Source: Minisyncoccota bacterium (GTDB lineage: Bacteria > Patescibacteriota > Minisyncoccia > Phycocordibacterales > JABMNX01). From it: 64,000 nucleotides of DNA. The notes under the pieces were generated by a model. The model was not told the DNA's origin. It was given only the letters and a program-made list of their open reading frames with translations, and ran no database searches. Both the position numbers and the translations under genes were made by a program. Shown piece by piece: positions 1-52,442 of this stretch (positions are counted from its first letter, which is position 1; the number at the start of each line of letters is the position of its first letter). Location: the NCBI GenBank assembly GCA_040876885.1, contig JBBDOU010000008.1:42986-106985 (forward strand). Reading direction: 5' to 3'.

Positions 1-1182
1 ATTATTGATGCAATTGAAACATCTCTGGCCACTGCATATAAAAAAGAATACGGAAAGCGCGGACAGATTATTCGCGCGACGTTTGATTTAACAACAGGAG
101 ATACAGAATTTTTCCAAGTAAAAATAGTTGTCGATGACACGCTCGTGCGCGATGAAGAAGCGGAAGCAGAAAATGAAGATGATGTGCGTTCACGATTCAA
201 CCCAGAGCACCACATTATGATTGAAGATGCTAAGCGTATTAAAAAAGACGCAGAGCTTGATAGCGAAATCACCTTCCCCCTTGAAACTAAAGACGACTTT
301 GGGCGAATTGCCGCACAAACTGCAAAACAAGTTATCGTACAGAAAATTAGAGAAGCTGAGAAGGTATCTATTATGGAAGAATACGGAGAACGTGAAGGTG
401 ACATCATCACCGGAACAGTACAGCGACTTGAGCGTGGAAACATGTTTATTGACCTTGGACGAGCAACGGGGATTATCCCGTATGAAGAACAAATCCCTGG
501 AGAGAGATATCGTCAAGGAGAACGTCTTCGTGCATACCTATACTCAGTAGAAGAAAGTCCTCGAGGAACATTCCTTCGCATGTCACGCTCACACCCTGAC
601 TTCCTTAAGAAACTCTTTGAAATGGAAGTTCCTGAGCTTGCGTCAGGTGCTGTTGGCATTAAAGAAATAGCCCGCGAGGCAGGTTCACGTTCAAAGATCG
701 CTGTCGTTTCACACGATGAGCATATTGACCCTGTTGGTTCCTTTGTTGGACAACGTGGAGTGCGTGTTACGACTGTTATGGGGGAGCTCGGTGGAGAAAA
801 AATAGATGTTATTGAGTGGTCAGAAGACCCAAAAGAATTTATTGAAAAAGCACTCTCCCCTGCAGAAATCCTCAGCGTAACGCTTGATGAAGAAGAAAAG
901 AAAGCGACTGTTGAAGTCGCTGACGACCAACAGTCTCTCGCAATCGGAAAAGGAGGACAAAATGTTCGCCTTGCTGCAAAACTTACTGGATGGAGAATAG
1001 ATATTCACTCTCTTGGCGGAGACACTAAAGAAATTACCCCTGAAGAAGTGCCTGCTACAGAGAAAGTAGCTCCAGAAGCAACAGTAGAAGCACCAGCAAT
1101 TGAAACTGAAGAACCAGTTACAGAAAGTGAGGTAGCAACTGAGGCACCAGAAGCAGAAGAAAAACCTAAAGAAGAAGCGTAA
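1..1182 (+). CDS. nusA: Transcription termination/antitermination factor NusA (5' end cut by window edge)
   Basis: Frame-1 translation is open from base 1 (IIDAIETSLATAYKKEYGKRG...) and joins track ORF 145..1182; S1-like segment and two KH-like motifs (IAIGKGGQNVRLAAKLTGWRI); acidic C-terminal tail. Confidence 0.88.
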   Translation: MIDAIETSLATAYKKEYGKRGQIIRATFDLTTGDTEFFQVKIVVDDTLVRDEEAEAENEDDVRSRFNPEHHIMIEDAKRIKKDAELDSEITFPLETKDDFGRIAAQTAKQVIVQKIREAEKVSIMEEYGEREGDIITGTVQRLERGNMFIDLGRATGIIPYEEQIPGERYRQGERLRAYLYSVEESPRGTFLRMSRSHPDFLKKLFEMEVPELASGAVGIKEIAREAGSRSKIAVVSHDEHIDPVGSFVGQRGVRVTTVMGELGGEKIDVIEWSEDPKEFIEKALSPAEILSVTLDEEEKKATVEVADDQQSLAIGKGGQNVRLAAKLTGWRIDIHSLGGDTKEITPEEVPATEKVAPEATVEAPAIETEEPVTESEVATEAPEAEEKPKEEA

Positions 1183-2813: not shown

Positions 2814-3164
2814 ATGAATGAAGAAAATAAAAACGTGAATGAAGAGCCTGTAATGGAAACTCCTCAAGAAGACACCCCCAACACACCTCAAGGAAACAGT
2901 ACGGAAGAACATGCGTCCTCTGGCCCTCTTGTTGGGGTTGCAATTATTATTCTCGTATTAATCGTTGGCGGTATCTACTTCTGGAATACTGAGGTGAATA
3001 ACCACAAAGGAGACGCGACTCAAGAAACCTCTGCAGAAGCTACTGTAGACGCACTGAACACCCAGGGGACGTCTGATGAGGTTGCTGCAATCGAAGCTGA
3101 CCTTGATACAACTGACCTTGATAACCTCGATGCAGAGCTTGACGACCTTCTCAACGGGCTGTAG
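2814..3164 (+). CDS. Small single-pass membrane protein with acidic tails, unknown function
   Basis: 116 aa; central TM helix (LVGVAIIILVLIVGGIYFW); acidic N- and C-termini; follows the previous gene. Confidence 0.45.
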   Translation: MNEENKNVNEEPVMETPQEDTPNTPQGNSTEEHASSGPLVGVAIIILVLIVGGIYFWNTEVNNHKGDATQETSAEATVDALNTQGTSDEVAAIEADLDTTDLDNLDAELDDLLNGL

Positions 3165-5218: not shown

Positions 5219-5671
5219 TTTATATGCATCTTTTCTTAGTGCGTACGCACCCCATAAAATAATTGCCTCTTTGACATTGAGACTTCCATTCTGGGGTAAT
5301 GTAGAAATAGTACGCGAGCTTAAAACAATACAGCGCACCGAAGCCGAGGACCCACAGAATAGTTGCTTGAATAAGATCTACAAGCACGAGTTGCATTTCC
5401 GTCTCCATTTCTAAACATTTCTATTCAAAATAGAGAACAATGCGAACAGTTAGACAATCGCAAAAACCCGTGATATATTCAGAGTGCACTGCAATAGTGT
5501 TCTTATTTAATTTAACACTGAAATCAAGCCCTTTACCTTACGTTGCTGATGTTCCTGAATGACAGAAATCCTCACGATGGCCCGTATCACCATATACTCT
5601 CTATATAGACCTTACATACTACATAAAAACCATCCGTATACTCACTATAAAGGCACGATTTTAGCCTACAT

Positions 5672-7736: not shown

Positions 7737-7811
7737 AGAGAGAATCGGTCACGGTCGCTAAATGTTTTGGGGTCAAGTTTCTAAACTTGCTTTGTTAGTA
7801 GAGAGAATCGA
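7737..7811. repeat. Two partial copies of the tRNA-Gly(TCC) T-loop/3' stem flanking an 18-nt motif TTGGGGTCAAGTTTCTAA
   Basis: agagagaatcg at 7737 and 7798 matches the T-arm of the adjacent tRNA (gtagagagaatcgaac at 7932); the same 18-mer recurs at 12986. Confidence 0.5.
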
Positions 7812-7892
7812 CGACTAGTCACTAAGTAAAATTTTCGTCTTTCAGACTTAATTTTACTTAGTGCTTTTCGTCTAGCCTCAGCTAAATACAAA

Positions 7893-7920: not shown

Positions 7921-7928
7921 GTATTTTG

Positions 7929-7999
7929 TGCGGGTAGAGAGAATCGAACTCTCGTCTACTGCTTGGAAGGCAGTCATTCTACCACTAAACTATACCCGC
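7929..7999 (-). tRNA. tRNA-Gly (anticodon TCC)
   Basis: Reverse complement GCGGGTATAGTTTAGTGGTAGAATGACTGCCTTCCAAGCAGTAGACGAGAGTTCGATTCTCTCTACCCGCA folds as a cloverleaf; anticodon loop CTTCCAA. Confidence 0.9.
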
Positions 8000-8037
8000 T
8001 CTTATAACTCAACGAATGTAATCCTACCAAAATACAA

Positions 8038-8060
8038 CAAACCCCGCAATTGCGGGGTTT
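8038..8060. terminator. Bidirectional terminator hairpin (aaaccccgcaattgcggggttt)
   Basis: Perfect palindrome; T-rich on the minus-strand side, just downstream of the small acidic ORF. Confidence 0.6.
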
Positions 8061-8083
8061 GTTAGTTGAAGATTGAATAAAAA

Positions 8084-8203
8084 TTACTCAGCTGCTTCTT
8101 CTGTAGTTGCTTCTTCAACAGCTCCTTCAGTTGCTGGTGCATCTGTAGTTGCTTCTTCAGTTCCTTCTGCTCCTTCTACTACTTCGTCAAATACGAATGT
8201 CAT
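8084..8203 (-). CDS. Small acidic peptide (39 aa), unannotated
   Basis: ATG...TAA ORF MTFVFDEVVEGAEGTEEATTDAPATEGAVEEATTEEAAE, below the ORF-track length cutoff; followed by a CCCCGCA hairpin terminator; N-terminus resembles a second acidic mini-ORF at 52112..52228. Confidence 0.3.
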   Translation of the reverse strand: MTFVFDEVVEGAEGTEEATTDAPATEGAVEEATTEEAAE

Positions 8204-8407
8204 AATATTTTTTGTCTTACGTTCAAACACCATTTAAAGTGTTCGGAACACTGATAAACAAAAAGCTGGGCTTATAACCCAAGCTATGTCCATAAGTATA
8301 CATGAGACACCCGTATTGTCAATACTACATAATAAATATAATCTATTGTCAAAATCTATAATAACCCGTGTTGAAGGGCTCTTTCTTGGTGTTATACTAA
8401 ATAAACT

Positions 8408-9571
8408 ATGCCGATATTTGCACTTATTCAAGTACTCATCAGTCGTATTGTTATTACAGTGATTGCGGTTCTCTCAGTAGTAGGAATTGGGTCATTTTCT
8501 GAAGCGCCACAGCACCTCGTCATAGAGGAGAAACCGGTGTCCATACAAGAAGAAACAACGCTACCTATCGATGGAGTAGTGGACATCCGAGAGCTCTCTG
8601 AAGAGTCTCTACCCGACCCAGAAGAATCGAAGCCTAAGGAAGCAGTATCGGTCCCTATAGCTGAAGAGACAGTTGAAGTGCCAGTAACCATCCCAATTCA
8701 GGAAGTTACAGTCCCCTTGTCCTTCTCTCAAATCAACACTGATACAGCAAAGACCCTCGTGAACGTGCTGTGCACACAAAATTCAGCGGGCGCAGCGCAT
8801 CCAATCACAGGGAGTGGGGTGATTATTGACCCACGAGGTGTTGTTATCACTAACGCACACGTGGCTCAGTTTTTTCTTTTGAAAGACCATCCGGTTGAAA
8901 ATGCACTCCAATGTACTTTAAGAACAGGAAGTCCTGCTCGAAACACATATACCGCTGAACTTCTGTATATATCACCAGAATGGGTGCGCCTCCACGCAAG
9001 TGACATAAACAATACTGCCCCAAAAGGCACTGGTGAGTACGACTATGCACTCTTGCGCATTACAGGGCGTACTGATCCCCAAGCACAGCTTCCAGCAACC
9101 TTCCCGTTCGTCTCTATTGGTATACATGACGAATCCATACAAACGGGTGATCAAGCGCTCGTTGCAGCGTACCCAGCAGGCTTCCTTGGGGGAGTCTCTA
9201 TTCAAAGAGATCTGTTCTCAGTCTCGAGTGTCGCGACAATAGGAGAGCGGTTTACGTTTCTTGAAAACACCATCGACCTTATTTCCGTTGGAGGGACGGT
9301 CGTCTCACAAGGAGGTTCTTCCGGAGGAGCGGTTGTCTCACAAGAAAATACCTTGATTGGTATAATCGTCACGAGTACGCAAGCTGATACAACTGCCGAG
9401 CGTGACTTACGTGCAATAACCACGGGGTATATAAATCGCTCCCTTATTGAAAACGAAAACACGACAATCGAAGGCCTGTTGTTTGGAGATGTCTTACTTA
9501 AAGCAAGACTGTTTAACTTGGGTGTCGCACCAGCGCTCACTGCATTATTTCTCCCCTATTTAGTGCAATAA
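8408..9571 (+). CDS. Membrane-anchored trypsin-like (S1 family) serine protease
   Basis: N-terminal TM helix, acidic linker, then catalytic His (VITNAHV), Asp (DYALLRI) and Ser (GGSSGGAVV) contexts. Confidence 0.75.
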   Translation: MPIFALIQVLISRIVITVIAVLSVVGIGSFSEAPQHLVIEEKPVSIQEETTLPIDGVVDIRELSEESLPDPEESKPKEAVSVPIAEETVEVPVTIPIQEVTVPLSFSQINTDTAKTLVNVLCTQNSAGAAHPITGSGVIIDPRGVVITNAHVAQFFLLKDHPVENALQCTLRTGSPARNTYTAELLYISPEWVRLHASDINNTAPKGTGEYDYALLRITGRTDPQAQLPATFPFVSIGIHDESIQTGDQALVAAYPAGFLGGVSIQRDLFSVSSVATIGERFTFLENTIDLISVGGTVVSQGGSSGGAVVSQENTLIGIIVTSTQADTTAERDLRAITTGYINRSLIENENTTIEGLLFGDVLLKARLFNLGVAPALTALFLPYLVQ

Positions 9572-9706: not shown

Positions 9707-10762
9707 TTATTTAAGCAGATGCACTGTCTGCGTCGGGTATGCGAATTCTATCTTTTCTTTTTTAAAGGATTCCAATAACTTTATATTAAGCTCCTCTTGA
9801 AGGTCTACGTAATCGATGTATTCACGTGTTGGTATATAGTACACAACCTCATAATCAAGTGCCGAAGAAGCGAGTGCTTTGAGGTGCACTCTATCAAGCC
9901 GTGCATTCCCCACTTCAAGCCCCGCAAATATTGCTCGCACCATATCGGGAACCGCCTTTATTTTTGGAAGATCGGTCTCATATAAAATACCAAAAGAAAA
10001 CACTGCTCGCCGTTCGGTCATCTTTTTAAGGTTTTGAATACGTGCAGAGGTCAGTTCCTGATTTGAAATTACAATCTCCTCCCCCTGCAGTGCACGAAGT
10101 CGTGTTGTTTTAATACCAATCTTTTCTACTGTACCTGAGTGCTCTCCTACAATAACAAAGTCACCTACCTCAAATGGTTTGTCGAAGTAAATCGCAAACG
10201 AGCTAAACAAATCAGAGAGAATATTCTGCATTGCAAGCGCAATCGCAATACCTCCAATACCAAGACCGGCGACAAGTGAGGTAATGTTAATTCCAAGGTT
10301 TGAAATAACTGCAAGAATCGCAATAATCCACAATCCCCATTTCACTGCACTCCCTAAGAATCGATATGCTTTTTGTCCATCTTTCCCTTCCCGCTTCGCC
10401 CACTTTTCTAATGTGTAATCAATAAGCACATGGAGTGCGGTTACTACCTGGTAGGCAATTACAACAAAAATTAACCCGTCAATCACCCTATCGATAGTAG
10501 TGGTGAAAGATAAGTATTGCAGTGCAAAATACACCGAAAGCATGTAATAAAATGCAGGCTTCACACTTCTGATAATGCGAATTAACGTATCATCAATATC
10601 AGTCTCGGTCTTTTTAGCAAGACTCTCTAGGCGTTTCAAAATCCCCCACTGTAGAAATCTAAATACGAGTGTCAGCACGATAAAAATACCGAGCGCCAAC
10701 AGGTACGCCTGAAGACTATTACCAAAAAATACATACTCACTCCTTTGTAACATTTCAATCAT
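9707..10762 (-). CDS. Mechanosensitive ion channel, MscS family
   Basis: 351 aa; several TM helices followed by the MscS beta-domain region GDFVIVGEHSGTVEKIGIKTTRLRALQGEEIVISN. Confidence 0.85.
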   Translation of the reverse strand: MIEMLQRSEYVFFGNSLQAYLLALGIFIVLTLVFRFLQWGILKRLESLAKKTETDIDDTLIRIIRSVKPAFYYMLSVYFALQYLSFTTTIDRVIDGLIFVVIAYQVVTALHVLIDYTLEKWAKREGKDGQKAYRFLGSAVKWGLWIIAILAVISNLGINITSLVAGLGIGGIAIALAMQNILSDLFSSFAIYFDKPFEVGDFVIVGEHSGTVEKIGIKTTRLRALQGEEIVISNQELTSARIQNLKKMTERRAVFSFGILYETDLPKIKAVPDMVRAIFAGLEVGNARLDRVHLKALASSALDYEVVYYIPTREYIDYVDLQEELNIKLLESFKKEKIEFAYPTQTVHLLK

Positions 10763-10997
10763 ATAATCTTAGTATATCAAAAATTAAAGACTTTTTAAAA
10801 AGTATGCCACAGGTAAGCGTCTTCCTTAATATGAGATCATGGGATATGTCTTGACTATCTCTAAGTTCGTAAACCCACTAAGAGTGGCGGGACACAACTC
10901 AGCCTTTCCTCGCTTCGTGCGTGATTCCGCCGTTCGTGACTTTGTTTTATTTATAAAACAAGAAACACTCCTGTGGTGAATCCCAGTACTTCGCGCA

Positions 10998-15840: not shown

Positions 15841-15901
15841 ATGTCCTTTAGAAAAAGAGTAAAGGACATGGGTGTGGATAAATGTCCTTTATAAAGGACA
15901 T
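15841..15901. repeat. Two tandem copies of the palindromic element ATGTCCTTTA/TAAAGGACAT, each followed by GGGTG
   Basis: 15841-15869 is an inverted repeat with a 9-nt spacer; 15882-15901 is a perfect 20-bp palindrome; the same half-sites occur at 11417-11450. Confidence 0.7.
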
Positions 15902-15910
15902 GGGTGTTTT

Positions 15911-16288
15911 TTACCGATAATCCTCCCAAATACCAGCAAATACGCCCGCATAGTGCACTACTACATAAAGAAAGAACACATACCCAATAACCCCAACAAT
16001 AAGGACAAGTAGTGATGTATTGATGATTTCCTTACGGCGTTTCTTTGCTTCATCAAGAGTACACACACCCTTTTGTTTGTAGAAATAAAATAAAGTGGAT
16101 GCGACAAGAAGTAGTAACCCTACTCCTCGAAACGCCCACTTATATTCACCATAAAATGTATCAGAGAGAGAACTTGCGAAACTCACTGTTGAGAGCCCAA
16201 ACAAGACAAGGACGAGCGGACTTAAGCAACATAATGACGCGACAACCACCGGGAGACCGGTAACCTTAAGAAGTTCTTTTATTTTCAT
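15911..16288 (-). CDS. Small polytopic membrane protein, unknown function
   Basis: 125 aa with three or four hydrophobic helices. Confidence 0.5.
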   Translation of the reverse strand: MKIKELLKVTGLPVVVASLCCLSPLVLVLFGLSTVSFASSLSDTFYGEYKWAFRGVGLLLLVASTLFYFYKQKGVCTLDEAKKRRKEIINTSLLVLIVGVIGYVFFLYVVVHYAGVFAGIWEDYR

Positions 16289-16331
16289 ATTGATAAGTGT
16301 AGCGTATTGAGTGTTTCAATGTCAAGTTTAC

Positions 16332-16360
16332 TTGACATCAACATGTGGACTTCCTACAAT
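16332..16360 (+). promoter_or_regulatory. Candidate promoter TTGACA-N17-TACAAT ending 7 nt before the msrAB ATG, overlapped by a 9+9 palindrome (atgtcaagt-tt-acttgacat)
   Basis: Consensus-like hexamers with exact spacing; near-leaderless geometry. Confidence 0.45.
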
Positions 16361-16367
16361 AGACGCT

Positions 16368-17558
16368 ATGAACCATAGAATAAAGAACATGTTGTTGCCG
16401 TTTCTCCTTATCGCACTAATCCCAATCCTTATCTGGGGGTACGGGTGGTATCAGGGAAAGGTGTCGCCAAGTGAAGCAGACATGTCTGAAGTTATAGTGG
16501 GCGAAGCGGTTGGATATTTTGCTGGTGGGTGTTTCTGGTGTACTGAAAGTGATTTTGAAAAACTATCGGGGGTAACCGACGTTGTCTCTGGATACATGGG
16601 AGGGGATAGTGAGCATCCAAGCTACGTGCAAGTTGCAGGTGGAGAGAGTGGTCATCGAGAAGTGGTGAAGGTGACGTATAATCCAAACGAAGTGAGTTAT
16701 CGAAGGCTCGTCCTCGATCTCTTAAAACACACCGATCCAACTGACGAAGGTGGCTCGTTCTACGACCGAGGACATCAATACACGTCTGCGGTGTACTACC
16801 AAACGGAAGAAGAGAAGGCTATCGCGGAAGCAGTCCTCACGGAGATCGACACACTTGATGTGTATGAAAAACCTACTGTAACGAGTGTTGAACCTGCAGG
16901 AACATTCTGGGTGGCAGAAGACTACCACCAGGACTACTACAAGAAGAATCCTCGACAATACCAATACTACCGGACCGGTTCAGGGCGAGATGCATTTATA
17001 CAATCAGTGTGGGGGGACGGCATGCATGATGCGTTATTTATAGAGGAGATAATGAACGAATTAAATATAGGTAACAAAGGTAGTGCGGGAACGGATACTA
17101 TAAAGAATTCCTGGATAAATTTTGAGAAGCCAAGTGACGCAGTGCTCAAAAGCACCCTTACTGAACTTCAGTATTATGTAACACAAAAAGAGGGGACCGA
17201 GACTCCTTTTAAAAATGAGTACTGGGACAACCACGAGGAAGGTATTTATGTGGATGTCGTTTCAGGAGAACCTCTTTTTTCTTCAACTGATAAATTTGAT
17301 TCAGGTACAGGGTGGCCAAGCTTCTTAAAACCAATTGACTATAGCTTTGTGACCGAGCATAAAGATTACAAACTTATTATTCCACGTACGGAGATACGCA
17401 GTAAGATTGCGAATTCTCACCTTGGGCACATTATCCTTGATGGACCAATTGAGAACGATGGAATCCGCTACTGTATGAACTCTGCAGCACTTCGTTTCGT
17501 ACCAAAAAAAGACCTCAAAGCAGAAGGTCTTGGTGAGTATGCGAGCCTGTTTAAATAA
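16368..17558 (+). CDS. msrAB: Peptide methionine sulfoxide reductase MsrA-MsrB fusion with N-terminal membrane anchor
   Basis: MsrA active site GGCFWCTE; MsrB zinc/catalytic region ([10 protein letters not shown]...[11 protein letters not shown]); start taken at MNHRIKN, which precedes the TM helix. Confidence 0.88.
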
Positions 17559-30678: not shown

Positions 30679-30715
30679 ACTAAAAAGTATACCTTCTAAA
30701 TGGTATACTCACCAC

Positions 30716-43805: not shown

Positions 43806-44567
43806 TTACGTCTGCGCTATGTCTGATGTCCCGTCTTTAATTTCAGCACTCTGTACCATGCGTTTTCGTACAAAGATTTCCTGGAGAATTGCAAAAATAT
43901 TACTGGTTGTCCAATACAGTGCTATCGCAGCTGAGATTGAATACGAAATCACCCCAATAATAACGGGGAGCACGTACCGCATTTGTATCTGCATACTTCT
44001 TGCTAAATCATTTTTAAATGACTGCTCTTTATTTTTAGTATCAAACTTAGGAAAAGAAATCCGCGTATGGATAAATTGAGTAACCCCGGCGAGAACTGCG
44101 AGGACAATACTCTTACCTGCCATATCAACAAAACCAATAAAATTCATATTCACCATATCCGGAACGCTGACAAATGAATATAAGATGTCCGCATTAATTT
44201 CAGGAAACCCTCCTTTAAAAAACACCCAATACAATCCGAAAATAATCGGGAGTTGTATAAGAAGCGGTAAAATCATAGCGAACGGATTAATCCTCTTTTC
44301 CTTATACAGAGCCATCGTCTTTTGCGCTTGCTCTTGTTTATTGTCTTTGTACGTCTCTCTGATCTCTTCGAGTTCTGGTTTAACCGCGTTCATCATGATT
44401 TGTGAACGGATTGCACTCTGCGCAAGCGGGAGGAGGATGAGCTTCACTCCTATCGTCAAAATAACCACCGCGATACCCATATCAGCGTAGGGGATATGGT
44501 TTATAAGGAAGACGAGACTGTTATACAGTGGATCATAAATCACTGTGGAAAAAAGATATGAAAACAT
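43806..44567 (-). CDS. yidC: Membrane protein insertase YidC (short form)
   Basis: 253 aa; five TM helices; conserved rnpA-yidC-jag order. Confidence 0.88.
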   Translation of the reverse strand: MFSYLFSTVIYDPLYNSLVFLINHIPYADMGIAVVILTIGVKLILLPLAQSAIRSQIMMNAVKPELEEIRETYKDNKQEQAQKTMALYKEKRINPFAMILPLLIQLPIIFGLYWVFFKGGFPEINADILYSFVSVPDMVNMNFIGFVDMAGKSIVLAVLAGVTQFIHTRISFPKFDTKNKEQSFKNDLARSMQIQMRYVLPVIIGVISYSISAAIALYWTTSNIFAILQEIFVRKRMVQSAEIKDGTSDIAQT

Positions 44568-44603
44568 GAGGCAATTTTAACGCACTCACCCATCTTCCAC
44601 AAC

Positions 44604-44909
44604 TTATATTTTTTTTATGAGATAACTAATTTCTTCACGCAACTCTTTTTTTGATATGTCTTGTGCGCCTTTTTTTGTATAAAAAATAGCTTCTATAGGA
44701 TAAGGAGCTACTTCTTCAAATAAACCCCGCACACGTCTTCTCAGGAGGTTTCTCGCGGTAGCGTGTTTTATAGTCTTTTTTGAAATAACGACCCGAACCT
44801 GTGTTTTTTTAACACCGAGCTTCACCGCCCGTAATGAAAGGTGTGGGGAACTAAATAAACCGCCTGATTTCATGACGGTTTTAAAAAATGTCTCTGTTTT
44901 TTCTCTCAT
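44604..44909 (-). CDS. rnpA: Ribonuclease P protein component
   Basis: 101 aa basic protein; RNLLRRRVRGLF motif; immediately downstream of rpmH. Confidence 0.85.
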   Translation of the reverse strand: MREKTETFFKTVMKSGGLFSSPHLSLRAVKLGVKKTQVRVVISKKTIKHATARNLLRRRVRGLFEEVAPYPIEAIFYTKKGAQDISKKELREEISYLIKKI

Positions 44910-44915
44910 GAGGCT

Positions 44916-45050
44916 TTATACAGTAAGACTCGCTCGTCCCTTTTGACGGCGTCTTTTAAGGACATTTTGACCAGTTGAGGTTGCAGCTCGACCCAAAAAA
45001 CCATGGGCTCGTTTGCGCTTCCTGTTTTTAGGATTGTATGTTTGTGACAT
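44916..45050 (-). CDS. rpmH: 50S ribosomal protein L34
   Basis: Minus-strand [47 protein letters not shown] (44 aa), missed by the track; the track ORF 44906..45088 is a different frame. Confidence 0.85.
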
Positions 45051-45322
45051 AAGGACGTTAGTATACGATACAATGACACACTTTTCAAGGAAAACGTACC
45101 AGCGCTCTAAAAACCAGCTTTAGTAAGAATATTGGTCCCTTCACAACCACCTAAAGGGGTGCGTATCTTCCTATACACAATTTATACACAACTTATGAAC
45201 ATAATCATTCAAAGTGCACAAGTTCTATCATCTCCCCACTTCTATATAATAAGGATTATATATTTTTATATGCCTGATTTCTAAACTAGGCATAAAAATA
45301 CTTATGGAGTAACTACGATACT
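45051..45322. promoter_or_regulatory. oriC-proximal DnaA-box region and dnaA promoter region
   Basis: Degenerate DnaA boxes CTATACACA (45171) and TTATACACA (45182); tgtgggaat immediately at the dnaA start; rpmH-dnaA divergent arrangement. Confidence 0.5.
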
Positions 45323-46675
45323 GTGGGAATAAAACAACTTTGGGAAAATACACTTGTCGATATTGAACTGAGTATTTCAAAAGCAAACTTTAGTACTTGG
45401 TTTAAAAACACATCTATTCATAAAATAGATTCTGGTGTTGTGTATTTAGGGGTTCCTAATCAATTTGTTAAAGACTGGCTCTCAAATAAGTACCATAAAG
45501 ACATTTTAAAGACACTACGAAGTTTTTCTACAGAGGTGCGCGGTCTTGAATATATTATCTCTAAGGACCAAAAAGGCGCCCTCCATAAAAACCCCACGTC
45601 TGTAAAAGAATTTAACCAAAACTCAGTGGGGGAGCTCCCACTTGATGATTTTTATATTAATAAAAACGATAACTTAAACCCCCGGTATACATTTGATACA
45701 TTTGTAGTGGGGCCTTTCAATCAGCTTGCACACGCGGCAGCTCAGGTTATTACACAAAAACCAGGTATTGTGTACAACCCACTCTTTATTTATGGTTCGA
45801 CGGGACACGGTAAGACCCACCTTATACAATCAGTAGGGAATTATATTAAAAAAGTTAACCCAAATAGAAAAGTATTCTATGTAACCTCTGAACGGTTCGC
45901 GGTTGATTATCTTAATTCAGTTCAGGAAGGGAAAGCAAACACTTTTAAAGAGAAGTACCGACAATATGACGTTCTTATTATGGACGATATACAATTCCTC
46001 TCTGATAAAGAGAAGACCCAAGAGGAACTATTCCATTTATTTAATGCGTTATACGACAACAATAAGCAAATAATTTTTTCTTCTGATAAACACCCTAACT
46101 ACATTCCAGGGCTTGAAGACAGGCTAAAATCACGGTTTAACGCTGGTATGATTGCGGATATCCCTGCACCAGATCATGAGTCACGTATGGCGATTCTGAA
46201 ATCTAAAACTGCACAGAATAATTTTCTACTCCCTGATGACTTAGTTTCGTATATTTCAAGTGAGGTTCAGGGGAATATTAGAGAGTTAGAAGGTGTCTTA
46301 AACTCAATAATTTTTCAATCACAAGTAAAAGGGAGAATCCCCAACCAAACAGAAATTCGGGCGATTATTAAAAACAGCTCTAAACCTAAAAAATCAGTAT
46401 CAGCAAAAGATGTGATTAAAAAGATTGCTGATTTTTATGAAATAAACGAAAACAGTATCTACGAAAAGACTCGAAAAAAAGAAATTGTTAAACCAAGACA
46501 GCTAATTATGTATATCTTGCGAGAAGATTTTGGTGTGTCTTATCCAAGTATTGGAGAAAAATTAGGAGGAAGAGACCACACAACAGTAATACACTCTTGT
46601 GAGAAAATTAAAAACGACCTAAAAACAAACCCGACCCTTGGGCAGGAGATAGACCAAATACGGGCATTGTTATAA
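45323..46675 (+). CDS. dnaA: Chromosomal replication initiator DnaA
   Basis: Walker A GSTGHGKTHL, AAA+ sensor motifs, C-terminal DNA-binding domain. Confidence 0.95.
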   Translation: MGIKQLWENTLVDIELSISKANFSTWFKNTSIHKIDSGVVYLGVPNQFVKDWLSNKYHKDILKTLRSFSTEVRGLEYIISKDQKGALHKNPTSVKEFNQNSVGELPLDDFYINKNDNLNPRYTFDTFVVGPFNQLAHAAAQVITQKPGIVYNPLFIYGSTGHGKTHLIQSVGNYIKKVNPNRKVFYVTSERFAVDYLNSVQEGKANTFKEKYRQYDVLIMDDIQFLSDKEKTQEELFHLFNALYDNNKQIIFSSDKHPNYIPGLEDRLKSRFNAGMIADIPAPDHESRMAILKSKTAQNNFLLPDDLVSYISSEVQGNIRELEGVLNSIIFQSQVKGRIPNQTEIRAIIKNSSKPKKSVSAKDVIKKIADFYEINENSIYEKTRKKEIVKPRQLIMYILREDFGVSYPSIGEKLGGRDHTTVIHSCEKIKNDLKTNPTLGQEIDQIRALL

Positions 46676-46889
46676 ATAAAAACATGTTCATTGACTGTGG
46701 AAAAAAAGTTAATATATAAAAAGTAATCAACAAGAGTATTATGAAAAAAGAAACCTATAAAATAAAATCAACTTTTTATACACACGTTGTTGGTAAATTA
46801 TTTAACAGAATATACTTATTTATAAACATTAAAAATACTTTTCAACATATACACAGTACTAATAGTAATAATAAATTATATATACATAT
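46676..46889. promoter_or_regulatory. AT-rich dnaA-dnaN intergenic region; candidate DNA-unwinding element of oriC
   Basis: About 80% A+T with a further TTATACACA box (46777) and tgtggaaaa. Confidence 0.45.
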
Positions 46890-47993
46890 ATGAAAATAAC
46901 CTGTGAAAAAAAAGATCTATTAAACAGCTTAGTTATTACAGAAAAAATAACTGGTACTAATCCAACACTACCAATCCTTAGTTGTGTGTTATTAATTGTG
47001 AAAGATTCAATTCTTACTGTACGTTCAACAAATCTTGAGCTTGGTATTGAAGTATATATACCAGTCACTTCAGAAGAAGATGGAATAGTTGCTATTCCGG
47101 GTCATATTTTTTATAACACTATACAAAATACACACGATAATTCTATTACTCTTGAAACACAAAAAGATACACTTGTTATTCAAACAAAACATAGTAAAAC
47201 AGTACTTAATACACAAATATATGATGATTTTCCATCATTACCAATAATTCAAAACAACACAACATATACATTAAAAACAGAGAATATTATTAAAGGTATA
47301 GAATCAGTTGTGTATAGTGCGTCTAATTCAACTATTAAACCAGAGCTTTCAAGTGTGTATGTGTATGAACATGATAATAAAATATTTTTTGTTGCAACAG
47401 ACTCTTTTCGATTAGCTGAGAAAACAACACATATTAAAGAAAAAAATACACTTAACCAATCATTTCTACTTCCATTAAGAAACGCATTAGAGGTGGTGAG
47501 AATTTTAAACCAATTACCAGATGATAATATTTTAATTAAAGTAGATAATAACCAAATATCCCTTGAAGGTAAAAATTTATTTATCACATCAAGAATTATT
47601 GATGGTGTATTTCCTGACTATAAACAAATTATTCCTAAAGATTATATTTCAGAGGTAATTGTATTAAAACAGGATTTAGTTAATGTTTTTAAGAAAATAA
47701 GTATTTTTTCTGATAAATTTGGACAGATATCTATCGATATACAACCAAAGAAAAAAAACGTGACCATACATACAAATAACAATACAATAGGGAAAACAAG
47801 TGATGGTATTGATGCTGCGGTGACTGGAGAAGCGTTGGTAATGAGTTTTAATTACCGATATATATACGATTGTCTTACCTCAATACATTCAGACAGTATT
47901 ACGTTACTTTTTACTGGTATTGGTAAACCACTTATTATAAAAGGTGTCTCTGATGAGTCATTTTTGTATCTCGTAATGCCGATGAATAAGTAA
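46890..47993 (+). CDS. dnaN: DNA polymerase III beta sliding clamp
   Basis: 367 aa with three-domain clamp architecture (MKITCEKKDLLNSL..., C-terminal LVMPM); directly after dnaA; about 28% GC. Confidence 0.88.
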   Translation: MKITCEKKDLLNSLVITEKITGTNPTLPILSCVLLIVKDSILTVRSTNLELGIEVYIPVTSEEDGIVAIPGHIFYNTIQNTHDNSITLETQKDTLVIQTKHSKTVLNTQIYDDFPSLPIIQNNTTYTLKTENIIKGIESVVYSASNSTIKPELSSVYVYEHDNKIFFVATDSFRLAEKTTHIKEKNTLNQSFLLPLRNALEVVRILNQLPDDNILIKVDNNQISLEGKNLFITSRIIDGVFPDYKQIIPKDYISEVIVLKQDLVNVFKKISIFSDKFGQISIDIQPKKKNVTIHTNNNTIGKTSDGIDAAVTGEALVMSFNYRYIYDCLTSIHSDSITLLFTGIGKPLIIKGVSDESFLYLVMPMNK

Positions 47994-50814: not shown

Positions 50815-52056
50815 GTGAGTACTTCGTGCTACAGTAGGTGTATGTTTGGGTTACGAAGTCTAAAACAAAAACCAGTAGATACTGAGGTGTCTAAAGTAGA
50901 GGAAATTCTCGCTCGGGGAGTTTCTCAGGTTGTCGATATGGAAGCATTGCGAAAGAAACTCCTCTCTGGACGAAGACTTCGTATAAAACTTGGTATTGAC
51001 CCCACAAGCCCTCATTTACATATCGGCCGAGCTGTCTCACTTTTAAAACTAAGAGATTTTCAAGAGCTTGGACATACTATTGTGCTTATTATCGGAGACA
51101 CTACAGGTGTTATCGGAGACACCTCGGATAAAGACAGTGAACGCCCACTTCTTACAAGAGATGCCGTTAGAGAGAATGCAAAGACATATTTTAAACAAGC
51201 GGGAAAAGTTTTAGATATGAGTGCGGTTGAGAAGCATTACAACTCAACGTGGCTTTCAAAGCTTTCTTATAATGAAATTGGCGAGCACGCAGATCAATTT
51301 TCTGTTGCGGACTTTGTCGCTCGCGACAATATTAAAAAAAGACTTGATGGTGGTAAGCGAGTTTCTTTACGGGAAATACTCTATCCTCTTATGCAGGGTT
51401 ACGATAGTGTTGCGGTACACGCAGATGTTGAGATAGGTGGAAATGATCAATGGTTTAACCTTCTCGCCGGACGAAAACTTCAGTCTCGATTTAACCAAGA
51501 ACCGCAGGATATTGTTACCACAAACTTAATTCTCGGCACTGATGGTAGAAAAATGAGTTCAAGTTGGGGTAACACCATAAATTTAACCGACTCACCAAAA
51601 GACATGTACGGAAAAATTATGAGTATACCGGACGAGCTGATTGTTCCGTATTTTATTCACTGCACTCGAGTTGAGAACAATCGTATTCAGGATATAGAAA
51701 AAAAAATGGAGAAGGGGGATAATCCACGGGACTATAAGATGGAGCTCGCAAAGACAATTGTTGCGCTTTACCACACAGAGAAAGATGCACAAAAATCTGA
51801 AGAAGATTTTGTAAAAAAATTCCAAAATAAAGATGTGTCAGATGCGCGAGTAGTGTCTGTAAAAAGCAACACACTCCTTAAGGACGTCTTTGTGGCGGAA
51901 GGGGTGGTATCTTCTAGAAATGAATTTAATCGATTAGTAGCGTCTGGTGCTGTGAGTGTTGTTGGCGCTGATAAGGTATCTGACCTTAAAGAGATAGCAA
52001 CAGACAACACATACAAAATAGGGAAGCGAAGGTCGCTCACTATCGAGATTATTTAA
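50815..52056 (+). CDS. tyrS: Tyrosyl-tRNA synthetase
   Basis: HIGH-type motif (PHLHIGRAV), KMSKS variant KMSSSWGNT, C-terminal S4 domain. Confidence 0.9.
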   Translation: MSTSCYSRCMFGLRSLKQKPVDTEVSKVEEILARGVSQVVDMEALRKKLLSGRRLRIKLGIDPTSPHLHIGRAVSLLKLRDFQELGHTIVLIIGDTTGVIGDTSDKDSERPLLTRDAVRENAKTYFKQAGKVLDMSAVEKHYNSTWLSKLSYNEIGEHADQFSVADFVARDNIKKRLDGGKRVSLREILYPLMQGYDSVAVHADVEIGGNDQWFNLLAGRKLQSRFNQEPQDIVTTNLILGTDGRKMSSSWGNTINLTDSPKDMYGKIMSIPDELIVPYFIHCTRVENNRIQDIEKKMEKGDNPRDYKMELAKTIVALYHTEKDAQKSEEDFVKKFQNKDVSDARVVSVKSNTLLKDVFVAEGVVSSRNEFNRLVASGAVSVVGADKVSDLKEIATDNTYKIGKRRSLTIEII

Positions 52057-52061
52057 TGTAA

Positions 52062-52094
52062 GTAAAAACCCCGCACACAAGTGCGGGGTTTTTA
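52062..52094. terminator. Bidirectional terminator aaaaaccccgcacacaagtgcggggttttt
   Basis: Perfect stem with flanking A- and T-runs. Confidence 0.75.
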
Positions 52095-52111
52095 CTTAAA
52101 GAAGATTAGGA

Positions 52112-52228
52112 CTACTCTTCGTCATCGTCTCCATCTGTGTCTGTATCTAGGTCCATATCATCGTCTCCATCTGTGTCTGTATCTAGGTCCAAGTCGTCAT
52201 CTTCTAGCTCATCGTCAAAATAAAACAT
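52112..52228 (-). CDS. Small, highly acidic repeat peptide (38 aa), unannotated
   Basis: ATG...TAG ORF MFYFDDELEDDDLDLDTDTDGDDDMDLDTDTDGDDDEE, below the ORF-track length cutoff; lies immediately upstream of the CCCCGCA terminator. Confidence 0.3.
   Translation of the reverse strand: MFYFDDELEDDDLDLDTDTDGDDDMDLDTDTDGDDDEE
52120..52191. repeat. 36/37-bp tandem direct repeat (x2) inside the acidic mini-ORF
   Basis: atcgtctccatctgtgtctgtatctaggtcca occurs twice in tandem. Confidence 0.8.
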
Positions 52229-52442
52229 ACGTTTTTTATTTTAAATTTTAAATTTATACTAACCGACCCACAATCGTAAGAGTTTACGAAAATGTGACCC
52301 TATAGTTGTACCAGAACTTAGTACTTTTTCAATACCCCAATATTTTTTTTGTGGATAATCTGTGTATATCTCAAAAAACACAAACGAGGCTTCTGTTAAG
52401 CGACCTGCTCTGGCACTTCCATTTTTATACTCGCTCCACTCG

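What the first reader, a model, noticed from the sequence alone, without database searches (positions are those of the whole stretch)
8084..8203. Unannotated 39-aa acidic peptide gene just upstream of a CCCCGCA palindromic terminator
The minus-strand ORF MTFVFDEVVEGAEGTEEATTDAPATEGAVEEATTEEAAE (predicted pI about 3) ends 24 nt before the aaaccccgcaattgcggggttt hairpin. A second acidic mini-ORF at 52112-52228 begins MFYFDDELEDD and also ends just before a near-identical CCCCGCA...TGCGGGG terminator. The shared MxFxFD(D/E)E N-terminus plus the shared terminator architecture suggests a small family of acidic peptides. They were missed because they fall below the 60-aa ORF cutoff.
Basis: seen in the sequence. 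Interest (0 to 1): 0.5.

Follow-up and report, generated by a model that had tools for sequence, protein, structure and literature searches.

The report
Two conserved acidic microprotein genes
Two tiny genes in an uncultured Paceibacterota (CPR) bacterium each encode a 30-50-residue, very acidic, probably unfolded protein that starts with a short aromatic motif; both are conserved in related genomes, one sits behind a pair of DnaA boxes near the replication origin, and their function is unknown.

Summary
They are the only such ORFs and the only such hairpins in the 64 kb.

- pep1 (MTFVFDE...) is syntenic in three relatives, and two more members exist as database proteins.
- pep2 (MFYFDDE...) lies between ruvC and a convergent tyrS in five relatives. 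A sixth, more distant relative has a divergent acidic ORF at the same spot.
- In both families the N-terminal motif and the frame are kept. The acidic tail changes freely in length by in-frame indels and repeats.

Each gene has its own promoter, a 5' stem-loop, an A-rich leader without a Shine-Dalgarno site (normal for this genome) and a strong terminator.

- The shared motif is F[VY]FD[DE], offset by one residue, not MxFxFD.
- The CCCCGCA stem is not a family trait, because pep2 orthologues use unrelated terminators.
- pep1 is annotated in a sister MAG as a 49-aa hypothetical protein, with a start codon that is not conserved.
- Homology between the two families cannot be shown statistically.

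New finding: pep2's promoter carries two tandem DnaA boxes exactly 17 nt upstream of the -35 element in six genomes, about 5.5 kb from dnaA.

No known family matches. My best guess at function, a free-standing nucleic-acid-mimic or competitor peptide, is inference only.

The parts
8295..8322 (-). pep1 promoter: TTGACA, 16-nt spacer, TATACT
   Evidence: It matches the consensus at 11 of 12 positions. The -35 block GTATTGACA and the -10 element are conserved in L001, L002 and L026.
8204..8287 (-). pep1 5' UTR of about 84 nt. It has a 5'-proximal stem-loop AGCTTGGG..CCCAGCT followed by a T-run (8260-8285), a second variable hairpin (about 8225-8244), and an A-rich leader ACAAAAAATATT with no Shine-Dalgarno site.
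   Evidence: The stem-loop pattern is unique in the window, with 0 matches in shuffles, and is present in L001, L002 and L026. The alignment fold gives 8 pairs, all invariant, so there is no covariation test. The leader is 60% A, against 41% for the genome's start regions.
8084..8203 (-). pep1 coding sequence: 39 aa, MTFVFDE followed by an E/A/T/P-rich tail, net charge -13
   Evidence: Orthologues are L001 5696..5800, L002 5606..5746 and L026 3001..3132, plus the proteins P0003 and P0124. The upstream ATG at 8233 is not conserved in frame.
8035..8064 (-). pep1 intrinsic terminator: 13-bp stem around CCCCGCAATTGCGGGG, followed by a T-run
   Evidence: -22.4 kcal/mol, z -6.2. It is identical in L001 and L002 and different in L026.
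52350..52369 (-). Two tandem DnaA boxes upstream of the pep2 promoter: ATATACACA, then GA, then TTATCCACA
   Evidence: The perfect box at 52350-52358 is one of only two perfect boxes in the window. In window, L027, L028, L030, L031 and L032 the box lies exactly 17 nt upstream of the -35 element, and the block is conserved while its flanks vary.
52305..52332 (-). pep2 promoter: TTGAAA, 16-nt spacer, (TGg)TACAAC
   Evidence: It is a conserved block in six genomes. It falls below the threshold of the consensus scanner, so it is inferred from conservation.
52229..52300 (-). pep2 5' UTR, with a stem-loop (about 52265-52300) and an A-rich leader
   Evidence: The single-sequence fold is -11.9 kcal/mol. 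The alignment fold gives 11 pairs, 3 of them with compensatory changes. The leader is 65% A.
52112..52228 (-). pep2 coding sequence: 38 aa, MFYFDDE followed by a D-rich tail ending DDEE, net charge -23. It contains a perfect 36-nt (12-codon) tandem duplication at 52122-52191.
   Evidence: Orthologues are in L027, L028, L030, L031 and L032, and L035 carries a divergent version.
52059..52098 (-). pep2 terminator: an 18-bp stem with A-run and T-run flanks. It is bidirectional and shared with the convergent tyrS gene (50815-52056, +).
   Evidence: -30.3 kcal/mol, z -11.1.

Best explanation
Shown:
- pep1 and pep2 are genuine protein-coding microgenes of a Paceibacterota lineage, each transcribed on its own.
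- Each unit consists of its own promoter, a 70-85-nt 5' UTR with a 5'-proximal stem-loop, an A-rich start region without a Shine-Dalgarno site, a 31-54-codon ORF and a strong terminator.
- Selection acts on three things: the N-terminal motif (M)(T)-[FIV]-[VY]-F-D-[DE]-[DE], the overall polyanionic character of the tail, and the acidic C-terminal end.
- The tail sequence and length drift by in-frame indels and repeats, as expected for an intrinsically disordered protein.
- pep2's promoter carries two tandem DnaA boxes at a fixed distance, about 5.5 kb from dnaA and oriC.

Inferred:
- The products are free-standing 'aromatic anchor plus polyanionic tail' peptides.
- They would work like the acidic nucleic-acid-mimic tails of SSB, Hfq, GyrA or the RNA polymerase delta subunit. 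The aromatic N-terminus would dock in a hydrophobic pocket of a basic nucleic-acid-binding protein, and the tail would compete with DNA or RNA for the basic surface.
- pep2 expression would be coupled to DnaA activity, that is, to the replication state.

I put about 0.9 on the genes being real and about 0.25-0.3 on this mechanism.
For: Conservation in synteny:
- pep1 is present in L001, L002 and L026, next to the same trypsin-like protease gene and tRNA-Gly(UCC).
- pep2 is present in L027, L028, L030, L031 and L032, between ruvC and a convergent tyrS. L035 has a divergent version at the same position.

Coding signature:
- The ATG-to-stop distance is a multiple of 3 in all orthologues, although ORF lengths range over 105-141 nt (pep1) and 96-165 nt (pep2).
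- The few changes inside the conserved motif are synonymous: ACA/ACT, TAT/TAC, TTT/TTC.
- The other sense frames carry stop codons in all but one case.
- The window's pep2 has a perfect in-frame 36-nt duplication.

Specificity:
- All strongly acidic mini-ORFs found in 377 kb of Paceibacterota DNA belong to these two families.
- The motif has no background hit among 6,547 ATG-started frames.

Expression signals:
- pep1's promoter matches the consensus at 11 of 12 positions.
- Both terminators are strong.
- The genome uses Shine-Dalgarno sites in only 6 of 56 genes and has A-rich start regions, which both peptide genes share.
- pep1 uses only the genome's preferred codons: GAA, GCA/GCT, ACA/ACT, GGA.

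Disorder: AlphaFold2 gives pLDDT 58-60 and no secondary structure for both peptides.

DnaA link:
- The box-to-(-35) spacing is 17 nt in six genomes.
- dnaA, dnaN, rnpA and yidC, together with the GC-skew minimum, lie at 44-48 kb.

Precedents from the literature:
- Acidic disordered tails act as nucleic-acid mimics in Hfq, gyrase, SSB and HMGB1 (PMC5606850).
- DnaA directly controls the small-protein gene sda in B. subtilis (PMC8203912).
Against: - There are no expression, translation or binding data of any kind.
- The first 7 codons, the 5' UTR and the terminator of pep1 are nearly identical at the nucleotide level between genomes whose neighbouring protein is only 61-66% identical. An RNA-level function or recent transfer of the unit is therefore not excluded.
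- The antisense frames are also open, which is a by-product of the composition.
- No partner protein is indicated by gene neighbourhood, because the two loci share no functional neighbours.
- The anchor motif is N-terminal, unlike the C-terminal tips of SSB or Hfq.
- The single-sequence AlphaFold2 runs are weak evidence for disorder.
- The DnaA boxes are identified by sequence only.
- pep1 has no DnaA box.
Confidence: 0.4

Rival explanations
1. The peptides are generic polyanions: buffers of divalent cations (Mg2+/Ca2+), counter-ions, or 'Hero-like' solubilising shields for basic proteins. In this reading the N-terminal motif serves only stability or initiation, and there is no specific nucleic-acid-mimic target.
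For: The tails are 24-64% D/E with almost no K/R, and only their composition is conserved. The window's pep2 carries two DxDxDG-like strings (DTDTDG). The M/D-rich tails in L030-L032 resemble metal-binding Met/Asp tracts (own knowledge).
Against: The DxDxDG strings are absent from the orthologues. A strictly conserved aromatic N-terminal motif, found in two families and nowhere else among 6,547 frames, argues for a specific docking site. DnaA-box control is hard to rationalise for an ion buffer.
Confidence: 0.2
2. The peptides are short-motif regulators of one specific protein, for example a protease adaptor or degron, or an inhibitor acting by beta-strand addition. The acidic tail would serve only as a solubility or entropic element. 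For pep1 the partner could be the divergently transcribed membrane-anchored trypsin-like protease.
For: pep1 shares a 200-nt divergent promoter region with the protease gene in all four genomes that have it. Alternating hydrophobic residues followed by acidic ones resemble strand-addition motifs (own knowledge).
Against: The protease has an N-terminal membrane helix and is probably extracytoplasmic, whereas the peptide has no signal sequence. More distant relatives keep the protease without pep1. pep2 has no comparable neighbour.
Confidence: 0.15
3. The ORFs are leader peptides of transcription attenuators. In pep1, ribosome stalling at GGA codons would control read-through into tRNA-Gly(UCC) immediately downstream.
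For: The layout is a small ORF followed by a terminator. All three Gly codons of pep1 are GGA, and tRNA-Gly(UCC) (7928-7999, -) follows 35 nt after the terminator. Rfam gives sub-threshold hits to the Thr and Leu leaders.
Against: The Rfam hits cover only the terminator hairpins and lie far below the gathering scores. No alternative antiterminator overlaps the ORF end, and the stop codon lies about 20 nt before a very stable stem. pep2 is followed by a convergent gene, not by an operon. Relatives without pep1 keep tRNA-Gly at the same place. L001 and L002 have an extra spacer of about 110 nt before the tRNA. The L030 pep2 has no Gly at all.
Confidence: 0.06
4. The loci are non-coding RNAs (sRNAs), or the ORFs are chance products of purine-rich conserved RNA. 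In this reading the peptides are not made.
For: Nucleotide-level conservation of the 5' UTR, the start region and the terminator is very high. There is no Shine-Dalgarno site. The antisense frames are open too.
Against: The frame is kept through many indels in 4 of 4 pep1 and 7 of 7 pep2 loci. Changes within the motif are synonymous, and the tails diverge in sequence but not in composition. Lack of a Shine-Dalgarno site is the norm in this genome. There is no Rfam family match. Gene callers predicted the orthologues independently.
Confidence: 0.07
5. The peptides are exported: bacteriocin, RiPP or signalling precursors with a conserved N-terminal leader and a variable core.
For: The N-terminus is conserved and the remainder is hypervariable. 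The pep1 tails are Thr/Pro-rich and mucin-like (a weak Pfam Mucin hit, E = 0.16).
Against: There is no signal peptide, no double-glycine site and no Cys. No modification enzyme or transporter lies within about 5 kb of either locus, where the neighbours are HU, RNase Y, MscS, RuvBC, YebC, TyrRS and a PBP. Conservation of tail composition is typical of disordered proteins, not of RiPP cores.
Confidence: 0.05

Closest known systems
Acidic nucleic-acid-mimic tails of nucleic-acid-binding proteins: the SSB C-terminal tip DDDIPF, the Hfq acidic CTD tip, the GyrA tail and the RNA polymerase delta (RpoE) C-terminal domain
   Same: They are disordered polyanionic stretches combined with a few hydrophobic or aromatic anchor residues at one terminus. 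Only composition and the terminal motif are conserved (PMC5606850; SSB and delta from own knowledge).
   Different: Here the element is a free-standing 31-54-aa gene product rather than the tail of a folded protein. The anchor is at the N-terminus, not the C-terminus. No binding was tested.
Sda of Bacillus subtilis, a small checkpoint protein whose promoter is bound by DnaA
   Same: It is a very small protein gene with its own promoter carrying DnaA boxes, which couples a small regulator to replication initiation (PMC8203912).
   Different: Sda is a folded helical hairpin, is not polyanionic and inhibits sporulation kinases. There is no sequence similarity: the peptides match no Pfam or NCBIfam family. 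Paceibacterota do not sporulate.
DNA-mimic proteins (Ocr, ArdA, DMP12/DMP19, HI1450, DinI)
   Same: They are strongly acidic proteins that compete with DNA for basic proteins such as HU or RecA (own knowledge).
   Different: Those proteins are folded, have 80-170 residues and display their charge on a rigid surface. The peptides here are 3-5 times smaller and are predicted to be unstructured. The PDB profile search found nothing.
Pup (prokaryotic ubiquitin-like protein)
   Same: It is a small, acidic, intrinsically disordered bacterial protein encoded by a stand-alone gene.
   Different: Pup ends in GGQ or GGE and is encoded with pafA, dop and mpa. The peptides here end in DDEE, ATE or AAE, and no such genes lie nearby.
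Attenuator leader peptides (Thr, Leu and Trp leaders)
   Same: They are short ORFs followed closely by an intrinsic terminator, and Rfam gave sub-threshold hits.
   Different: There is no run of regulatory codons, no alternative hairpin and no downstream co-directional operon for pep2. All Rfam scores are below the gathering thresholds.

Membership tests
Any described protein family (Pfam-A, NCBIfam, PDB sequences) | A significant profile or sequence match | tested here: not met
   Four family members scanned at E up to 10 matched no family, apart from noise: Mucin at E = 0.16 and SdrC at E = 4.7. The PDB profile search gave 0 hits at E up to 10.
Pup | A C-terminal GG[QE] and neighbouring pafA, dop and mpa genes | tested here: not met
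   The C-termini are DDEE, DDEM, ATE or AAE. The neighbours are unrelated housekeeping genes.
Attenuator leader peptide | Regulatory codon run, an alternative antiterminator/terminator pair overlapping the ORF, and a downstream co-directional operon | tested here: not met
   pep2 is followed by the convergent tyrS. A single very stable hairpin starts about 20 nt after the stop codon. The Rfam leader hits are below the gathering scores and cover only the hairpin. For pep1 the co-directional tRNA-Gly keeps this formally open.
SSB-Ct-like acidic tip | An acidic run ending in a C-terminal hydrophobic tripeptide (I-P-F) with a free carboxylate | tested here: not met
   The hydrophobic or aromatic motif is at the N-terminus, and the C-terminus is acidic. 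The resemblance is functional or architectural only.
DnaA regulon (pep2 only) | DnaA boxes (TTATNCACA) at a conserved position relative to the promoter | tested here: met
   There are two tandem boxes. The perfect box lies exactly 17 nt upstream of the -35 element in six genomes.
DnaA regulon (pep2 only) | DnaA binding and a DnaA-dependent change in transcription | not testable with these tools
   This needs EMSA or ChIP and reporter assays.
RiPP or bacteriocin precursor | Adjacent modification or export genes, and a leader cleavage site | tested here: not met
   No such genes lie within about 5 kb of either locus. There is no GG site and no Cys.
Type II toxin-antitoxin (acidic antitoxin) | A co-transcribed toxin gene | tested here: not met
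   Both genes are monocistronic, lying between their own promoter and terminator.
pep1 and pep2 as one homologous family | Statistically significant sequence or profile similarity | tested here: inconclusive
   hhalign aligns only the 7 motif columns, with E = 0.11. However, the motif occurs in none of about 6,500 background frames, and the gene architecture is parallel.

The most novel reading that the evidence does not exclude
pep2 is a DnaA-activated, origin-proximal polyanionic microprotein. It would feed back on replication initiation or nucleoid proteins by mimicking DNA, for example by titrating DnaA, HU or SSB. That would make it a minimal replication-coupled regulator specific to CPR bacteria, with pep1 as a constitutively expressed paralogue. 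Function would be carried by a 5-residue anchor plus charge alone.
Probability: 0.12. Interest if true: 0.75.

Novelty: new variant of a known kind. Interest (0 to 1): 0.5.

Why it matters
CPR (Patescibacteria) genomes are tiny and full of unannotated or 'hypothetical' genes, so microproteins conserved under selection there are likely to do something basic.

These two families show a minimal design: about five conserved residues plus a charge-only tail. One is wired to tandem DnaA boxes beside the origin. That offers a concrete, testable handle on how cell-cycle or nucleoid control works in organisms that cannot yet be grown alone.

There is also a practical lesson for annotation. One gene is missed, and the other is given a start codon that is not conserved.

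Tried and rejected
- Protein-database search with pep2 padded to 40 aa found no hit.
- A metagenome scan for MTFVFDE matched 261 pattern stretches, but only one locus was confirmed, L026.
- A profile search of 1.84 billion representative proteins returned only pep1-type proteins (P0001, P0124) and one spurious repeat protein. It found no pep2-type proteins and no longer proteins carrying the motif.
- Pfam, NCBIfam and PDB searches found nothing.
- Literature searches for the peptide strings, and for 'small acidic protein' together with Patescibacteria, found nothing.
- Rfam at gathering thresholds found only tRNAs. At permissive E-values it found only terminator look-alikes.
- hhalign between the two families was not significant.
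- AlphaFold2 on the single sequences gave no fold. That is consistent with disorder but is weak evidence.
- I considered whether the shared CCCCGCA stem marks a mobile cassette or a family trait, and rejected it because the orthologues have unrelated terminators.
- I considered the upstream ATG at 8233 (the 49-aa annotation) and the TTG start of P0002 (67 aa) as true starts. I rejected both: L001 has ATG GGT ATT TGA there and L002 has no ATG.
- I considered a Shine-Dalgarno site and found none, but the genome as a whole lacks them.

Full report
**1. Observation.**
- The minus-strand ORF 8084..8203 reads MTFVFDEVVEGAEGTEEATTDAPATEGAVEEATTEEAAE. The minus-strand ORF 52112..52228 reads MFYFDDELEDDDLDLDTDTDGDDDMDLDTDTDGDDDEE.
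- In all six frames of the 64 kb, these are the only ATG ORFs of 15-90 aa with at least 30% D/E and at most 2 K/R. Their net charges are -13 and -23.
- CCCCGCA..TGCGGGG occurs exactly twice, at 8042-8057 and 52069-52088, once behind each ORF. None was found in 100 shuffles.
- Both hairpins are very stable: -22.4 and -30.3 kcal/mol, with z-scores of -6.2 and -11.1.
- One correction applies. The literal pattern MxFxFD does not fit pep2. The common string is F-[VY]-F-D-[DE], shifted by one residue.

**2. Source and annotation.**
- Neighbouring genes and their relatives place the window in an uncultured Candidatus Paceibacterota (Parcubacteria/CPR) MAG with 40.8% GC.
- The identical pep1 sequence is annotated in a sister assembly as a 49-aa 'hypothetical protein WEB94_01855', starting at the upstream ATG 8233.
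- P0001 was not found on any contig longer than 20 kb. So it was apparently not called on the 127,881-nt contig that carries the window's RuvC.
- No gene is called between ruvC and tyrS on that contig either.

**3. pep1 is conserved.**
- I searched genomes using the divergent neighbour, a membrane-anchored trypsin-like protease at 8408-9571 (Pfam).
- The two closest relatives are 66% and 61% identical in that protein. Both carry, at the same place and on the same strand, MTFVFDEEVVEGAEVAETEEATEEATEEETPAAE (L001) and MTFVFDEKVETEGEATEEATTEAPATEEATTEAPATEEATKEAATE (L002).
- A marine-sediment contig (L026 = P0002) has a syntenic copy. Two database proteins (P0003, P0124) are further members.
- MTFVFDE is invariant. 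The tails range from 34 to 50 aa and differ by repeats of units such as ATTEAPATEE.
- The upstream ATG used in the NCBI annotation is not conserved. L001 reads ATG GGT ATT TGA there, and L002 has no ATG.
- More distant relatives have tRNA-Gly(UCC) directly next to the protease gene and no acidic ORF. This is shown for L003 and L006 (tRNA position), and no comparable acidic ORF was found at that position in any of the other loci. The roughly 300-nt unit is therefore a clade-specific addition.

**4. pep2 is conserved.**
- I fetched loci through RuvC homologues.
- Five relatives with 63-73% RuvC identity have an ORF between ruvC and a convergent tyrS:
  - L027: MFYFDEDEMLDDDVIPGGVEETDDDDMDDEE
  - L028: MFYFDDETMGMGLEDEVATEGMEEADEEGTDDEDEE
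  - L030: MFYFDDEEDMMDDDDMMSDDEEMDTDDDTDDEE
  - L031: MVYFYDEDEMMNDDEDMGG...DMDDEE
  - L032: MIYFDDEMMSDDMDMDDD...DMDDEM
- L035 (61% RuvC identity) has a 54-aa acidic ORF, MSYNDDEEF..., at the same spot.
- The ORF is present in 7 of 7 loci where tyrS is the neighbour. It is absent in 3 of 3 loci where tyrS is not there (L029, L033, L034).
- Independent gene callers predicted five of these ORFs.

**5. Coding evidence.**
- In every orthologue the distance from the conserved ATG to the conserved stop is a multiple of three, despite many indels.
- The other two sense frames contain stops, with one exception.
- The only substitutions inside the conserved motifs are synonymous: ACA/ACT in pep1, and TAT/TAC and TTT/TTC in pep2.
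- The window's pep2 contains a perfect 36-nt in-frame duplication.
- pep1 uses only the genome's preferred codons.
- The antisense frames are open as well. This follows from the GAN-rich composition, and they have no conserved start.

**6. Gene anatomy.**
- pep1 consists of:
  - a TTGACA-16-TATACT promoter, matching 11 of 12 consensus positions;
  - a 5'-proximal stem-loop followed by a U-run, unique in the window and invariant in four genomes;
  - a second hairpin that differs between genomes;
  - the leader ACAAAAAATATT and then the ATG;
  - a terminator, followed by tRNA-Gly(UCC).
- pep2 consists of:
  - tandem DnaA boxes;
  - a TTGAAA-16-TACAAC promoter, inferred from conservation only;
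  - a stem-loop with three compensatory pairs;
  - an A-rich leader, the ORF, and a bidirectional terminator shared with tyrS.
- Neither gene has a Shine-Dalgarno site. However, only 6 of 56 genes in the window do, many genes look leaderless, and start regions are A-rich and G-poor. Lack of a Shine-Dalgarno site is therefore not evidence against translation.

**7. DnaA link.**
- The window contains rnpA, yidC, dnaA and dnaN at 43.8-48 kb, along with the GC minimum and the cumulative-skew minimum. It therefore contains the origin region.
- About 5.5 kb away, pep2's promoter is preceded by ATATACACA-GA-TTATCCACA.
- The perfect box lies exactly 17 nt upstream of the -35 element in all six genomes, while the sequence in between varies.
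- That pattern is a phylogenetic footprint for DnaA-dependent control.
- DnaA is known to control a small-protein gene, sda, in B. subtilis (PMC8203912).
- Binding itself was not tested.

**8. One family or two?**
- The two families share an architecture: an N-terminal aromatic-acidic motif, a polyanionic tail, an acidic C-terminus, a monocistronic unit and a structured 5' UTR.
- The motif ^M.?F[VY]FD[DE] occurs 8 times among 6,547 ATG-started frames in about 390 kb of Paceibacterota DNA, and all 8 are in these ORFs.
- Every strongly acidic mini-ORF in that DNA belongs to one of the two families.
- Profile-profile comparison, however, aligns only seven columns, with E = 0.11. Common descent is plausible but unproven.
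- The CCCCGCA terminator similarity is not a family trait. The pep2 orthologues and the L026 pep1 orthologue use unrelated stems.

**9. Comparison with known families.**
- There is no match in Pfam, NCBIfam or PDB sequences, no Rfam family, and no literature hit for the sequences.
- The defining features of Pup, attenuator leaders, RiPP precursors, antitoxins and the SSB tip were checked and are not met (see the membership table).
- The nearest functional analogues are the acidic nucleic-acid-mimic tails of Hfq, SSB, gyrase and HMGB1 (PMC5606850) and of RNA polymerase delta (own knowledge). In regulatory logic, the nearest analogue is Sda.

**10. Mechanism.**
- Shown: these are conserved microprotein genes, each a separate predicted transcription unit, with selection on a 5-6-residue aromatic-acidic N-terminus and on charge alone elsewhere. 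They are predicted to be unstructured.
- Inferred, at about 0.25-0.3: the N-terminal F/Y residues dock into a hydrophobic pocket, and the polyanionic tail competes with DNA or RNA on a basic protein. pep2 levels would follow DnaA activity.
- Rivals are a generic polyanion or ion buffer, a specific strand-addition regulator or degron, an attenuator leader, a non-coding RNA, and an exported peptide. Each is weighed in the rivals section.

**11. Verdict.**
It is wrong on the terminator argument and imprecise on the motif and on the annotation status.
- This is a previously undescribed microprotein family, or pair of families, restricted so far to one Paceibacterota lineage.
- It is moderately interesting in itself. 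It becomes more interesting because one member sits in an apparent DnaA regulon next to the origin.

Noticed in passing
window 43806-47993: This is the replication origin region. It holds yidC and rnpA (-), then dnaA (45323-46675) and dnaN (46890-47993) (+). GC falls to 0.34 and the cumulative GC-skew minimum lies at 44-48 kb. Several one-mismatch DnaA boxes sit in the flanking intergenic spaces.
   Followed up: partly
window, all genes (e.g. 8385-8407, 9707-10790, 30695-30715): Only 6 of 56 long ORFs have a Shine-Dalgarno-like site. Many have a TATACT -10 box 7-9 nt before the ATG, which suggests widespread leaderless mRNAs. Start regions are A-rich and G-poor.
   Followed up: partly
window 7737-7747, 7798-7820 vs 7934-7956: Partial copies of the 3' end of tRNA-Gly(UCC) (AGAGAGAATCG three times, plus a 23-nt copy at 83% identity) lie downstream of the tRNA, between it and the HU gene. 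They look like remnants of att-site duplications from old integration events.
   Followed up: no
L001 about 5481-5600 and L002 about 5438-5530 (minus strand): L001 and L002 carry an extra conserved segment of about 110 nt between the pep1 terminator and tRNA-Gly. It includes a hairpin GGATATATGGAAAyCATATATCC and the string GCGGCATyCGGACAAAATGT. The segment is absent from the window and from L026.
   Followed up: no
window 15873-15881 (-): The only other perfect DnaA box (TTATCCACA) in the window lies in the intergenic space upstream of the MerT-like gene (15911-16288, -) and the divergent msrA/msrB fusion gene (16311-17558).
   Followed up: no
window 145-1182 (+): NusA ends in an A/T/E/P-rich acidic tail (APAIETEEPVTESEVATEAPEAEEKPKEEA) whose composition is like that of the pep1 tail.
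   Followed up: no
L027 (JBHPEW010000055.1) / P0006: The record is labelled 'candidate division KSB1 bacterium'. Yet its gene order (pilB-like, ruvB, yebC, ruvC, pep2, tyrS, PBP) and its 73% RuvC identity match the Paceibacterota loci. The label is probably a binning or labelling error.
   Followed up: no
P0001 (49 aa) and P0002 (67 aa; L026 about 2932-3132): Database gene models for pep1 start at non-conserved upstream ATG or TTG codons inside the 5' UTR. In P0002 the start falls in the T-run of the 5' stem-loop. The conserved start is the ATG of MTFVFDE.
   Followed up: yes
L029, L033, L034 vs L027, L028, L030, L031, L032, L035: pep2 and tyrS are present or absent together at the ruvC locus: 7 of 7 against 0 of 3. 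They therefore behave as one block. I could not check whether they moved together elsewhere in the three genomes that lack them here.
   Followed up: partly
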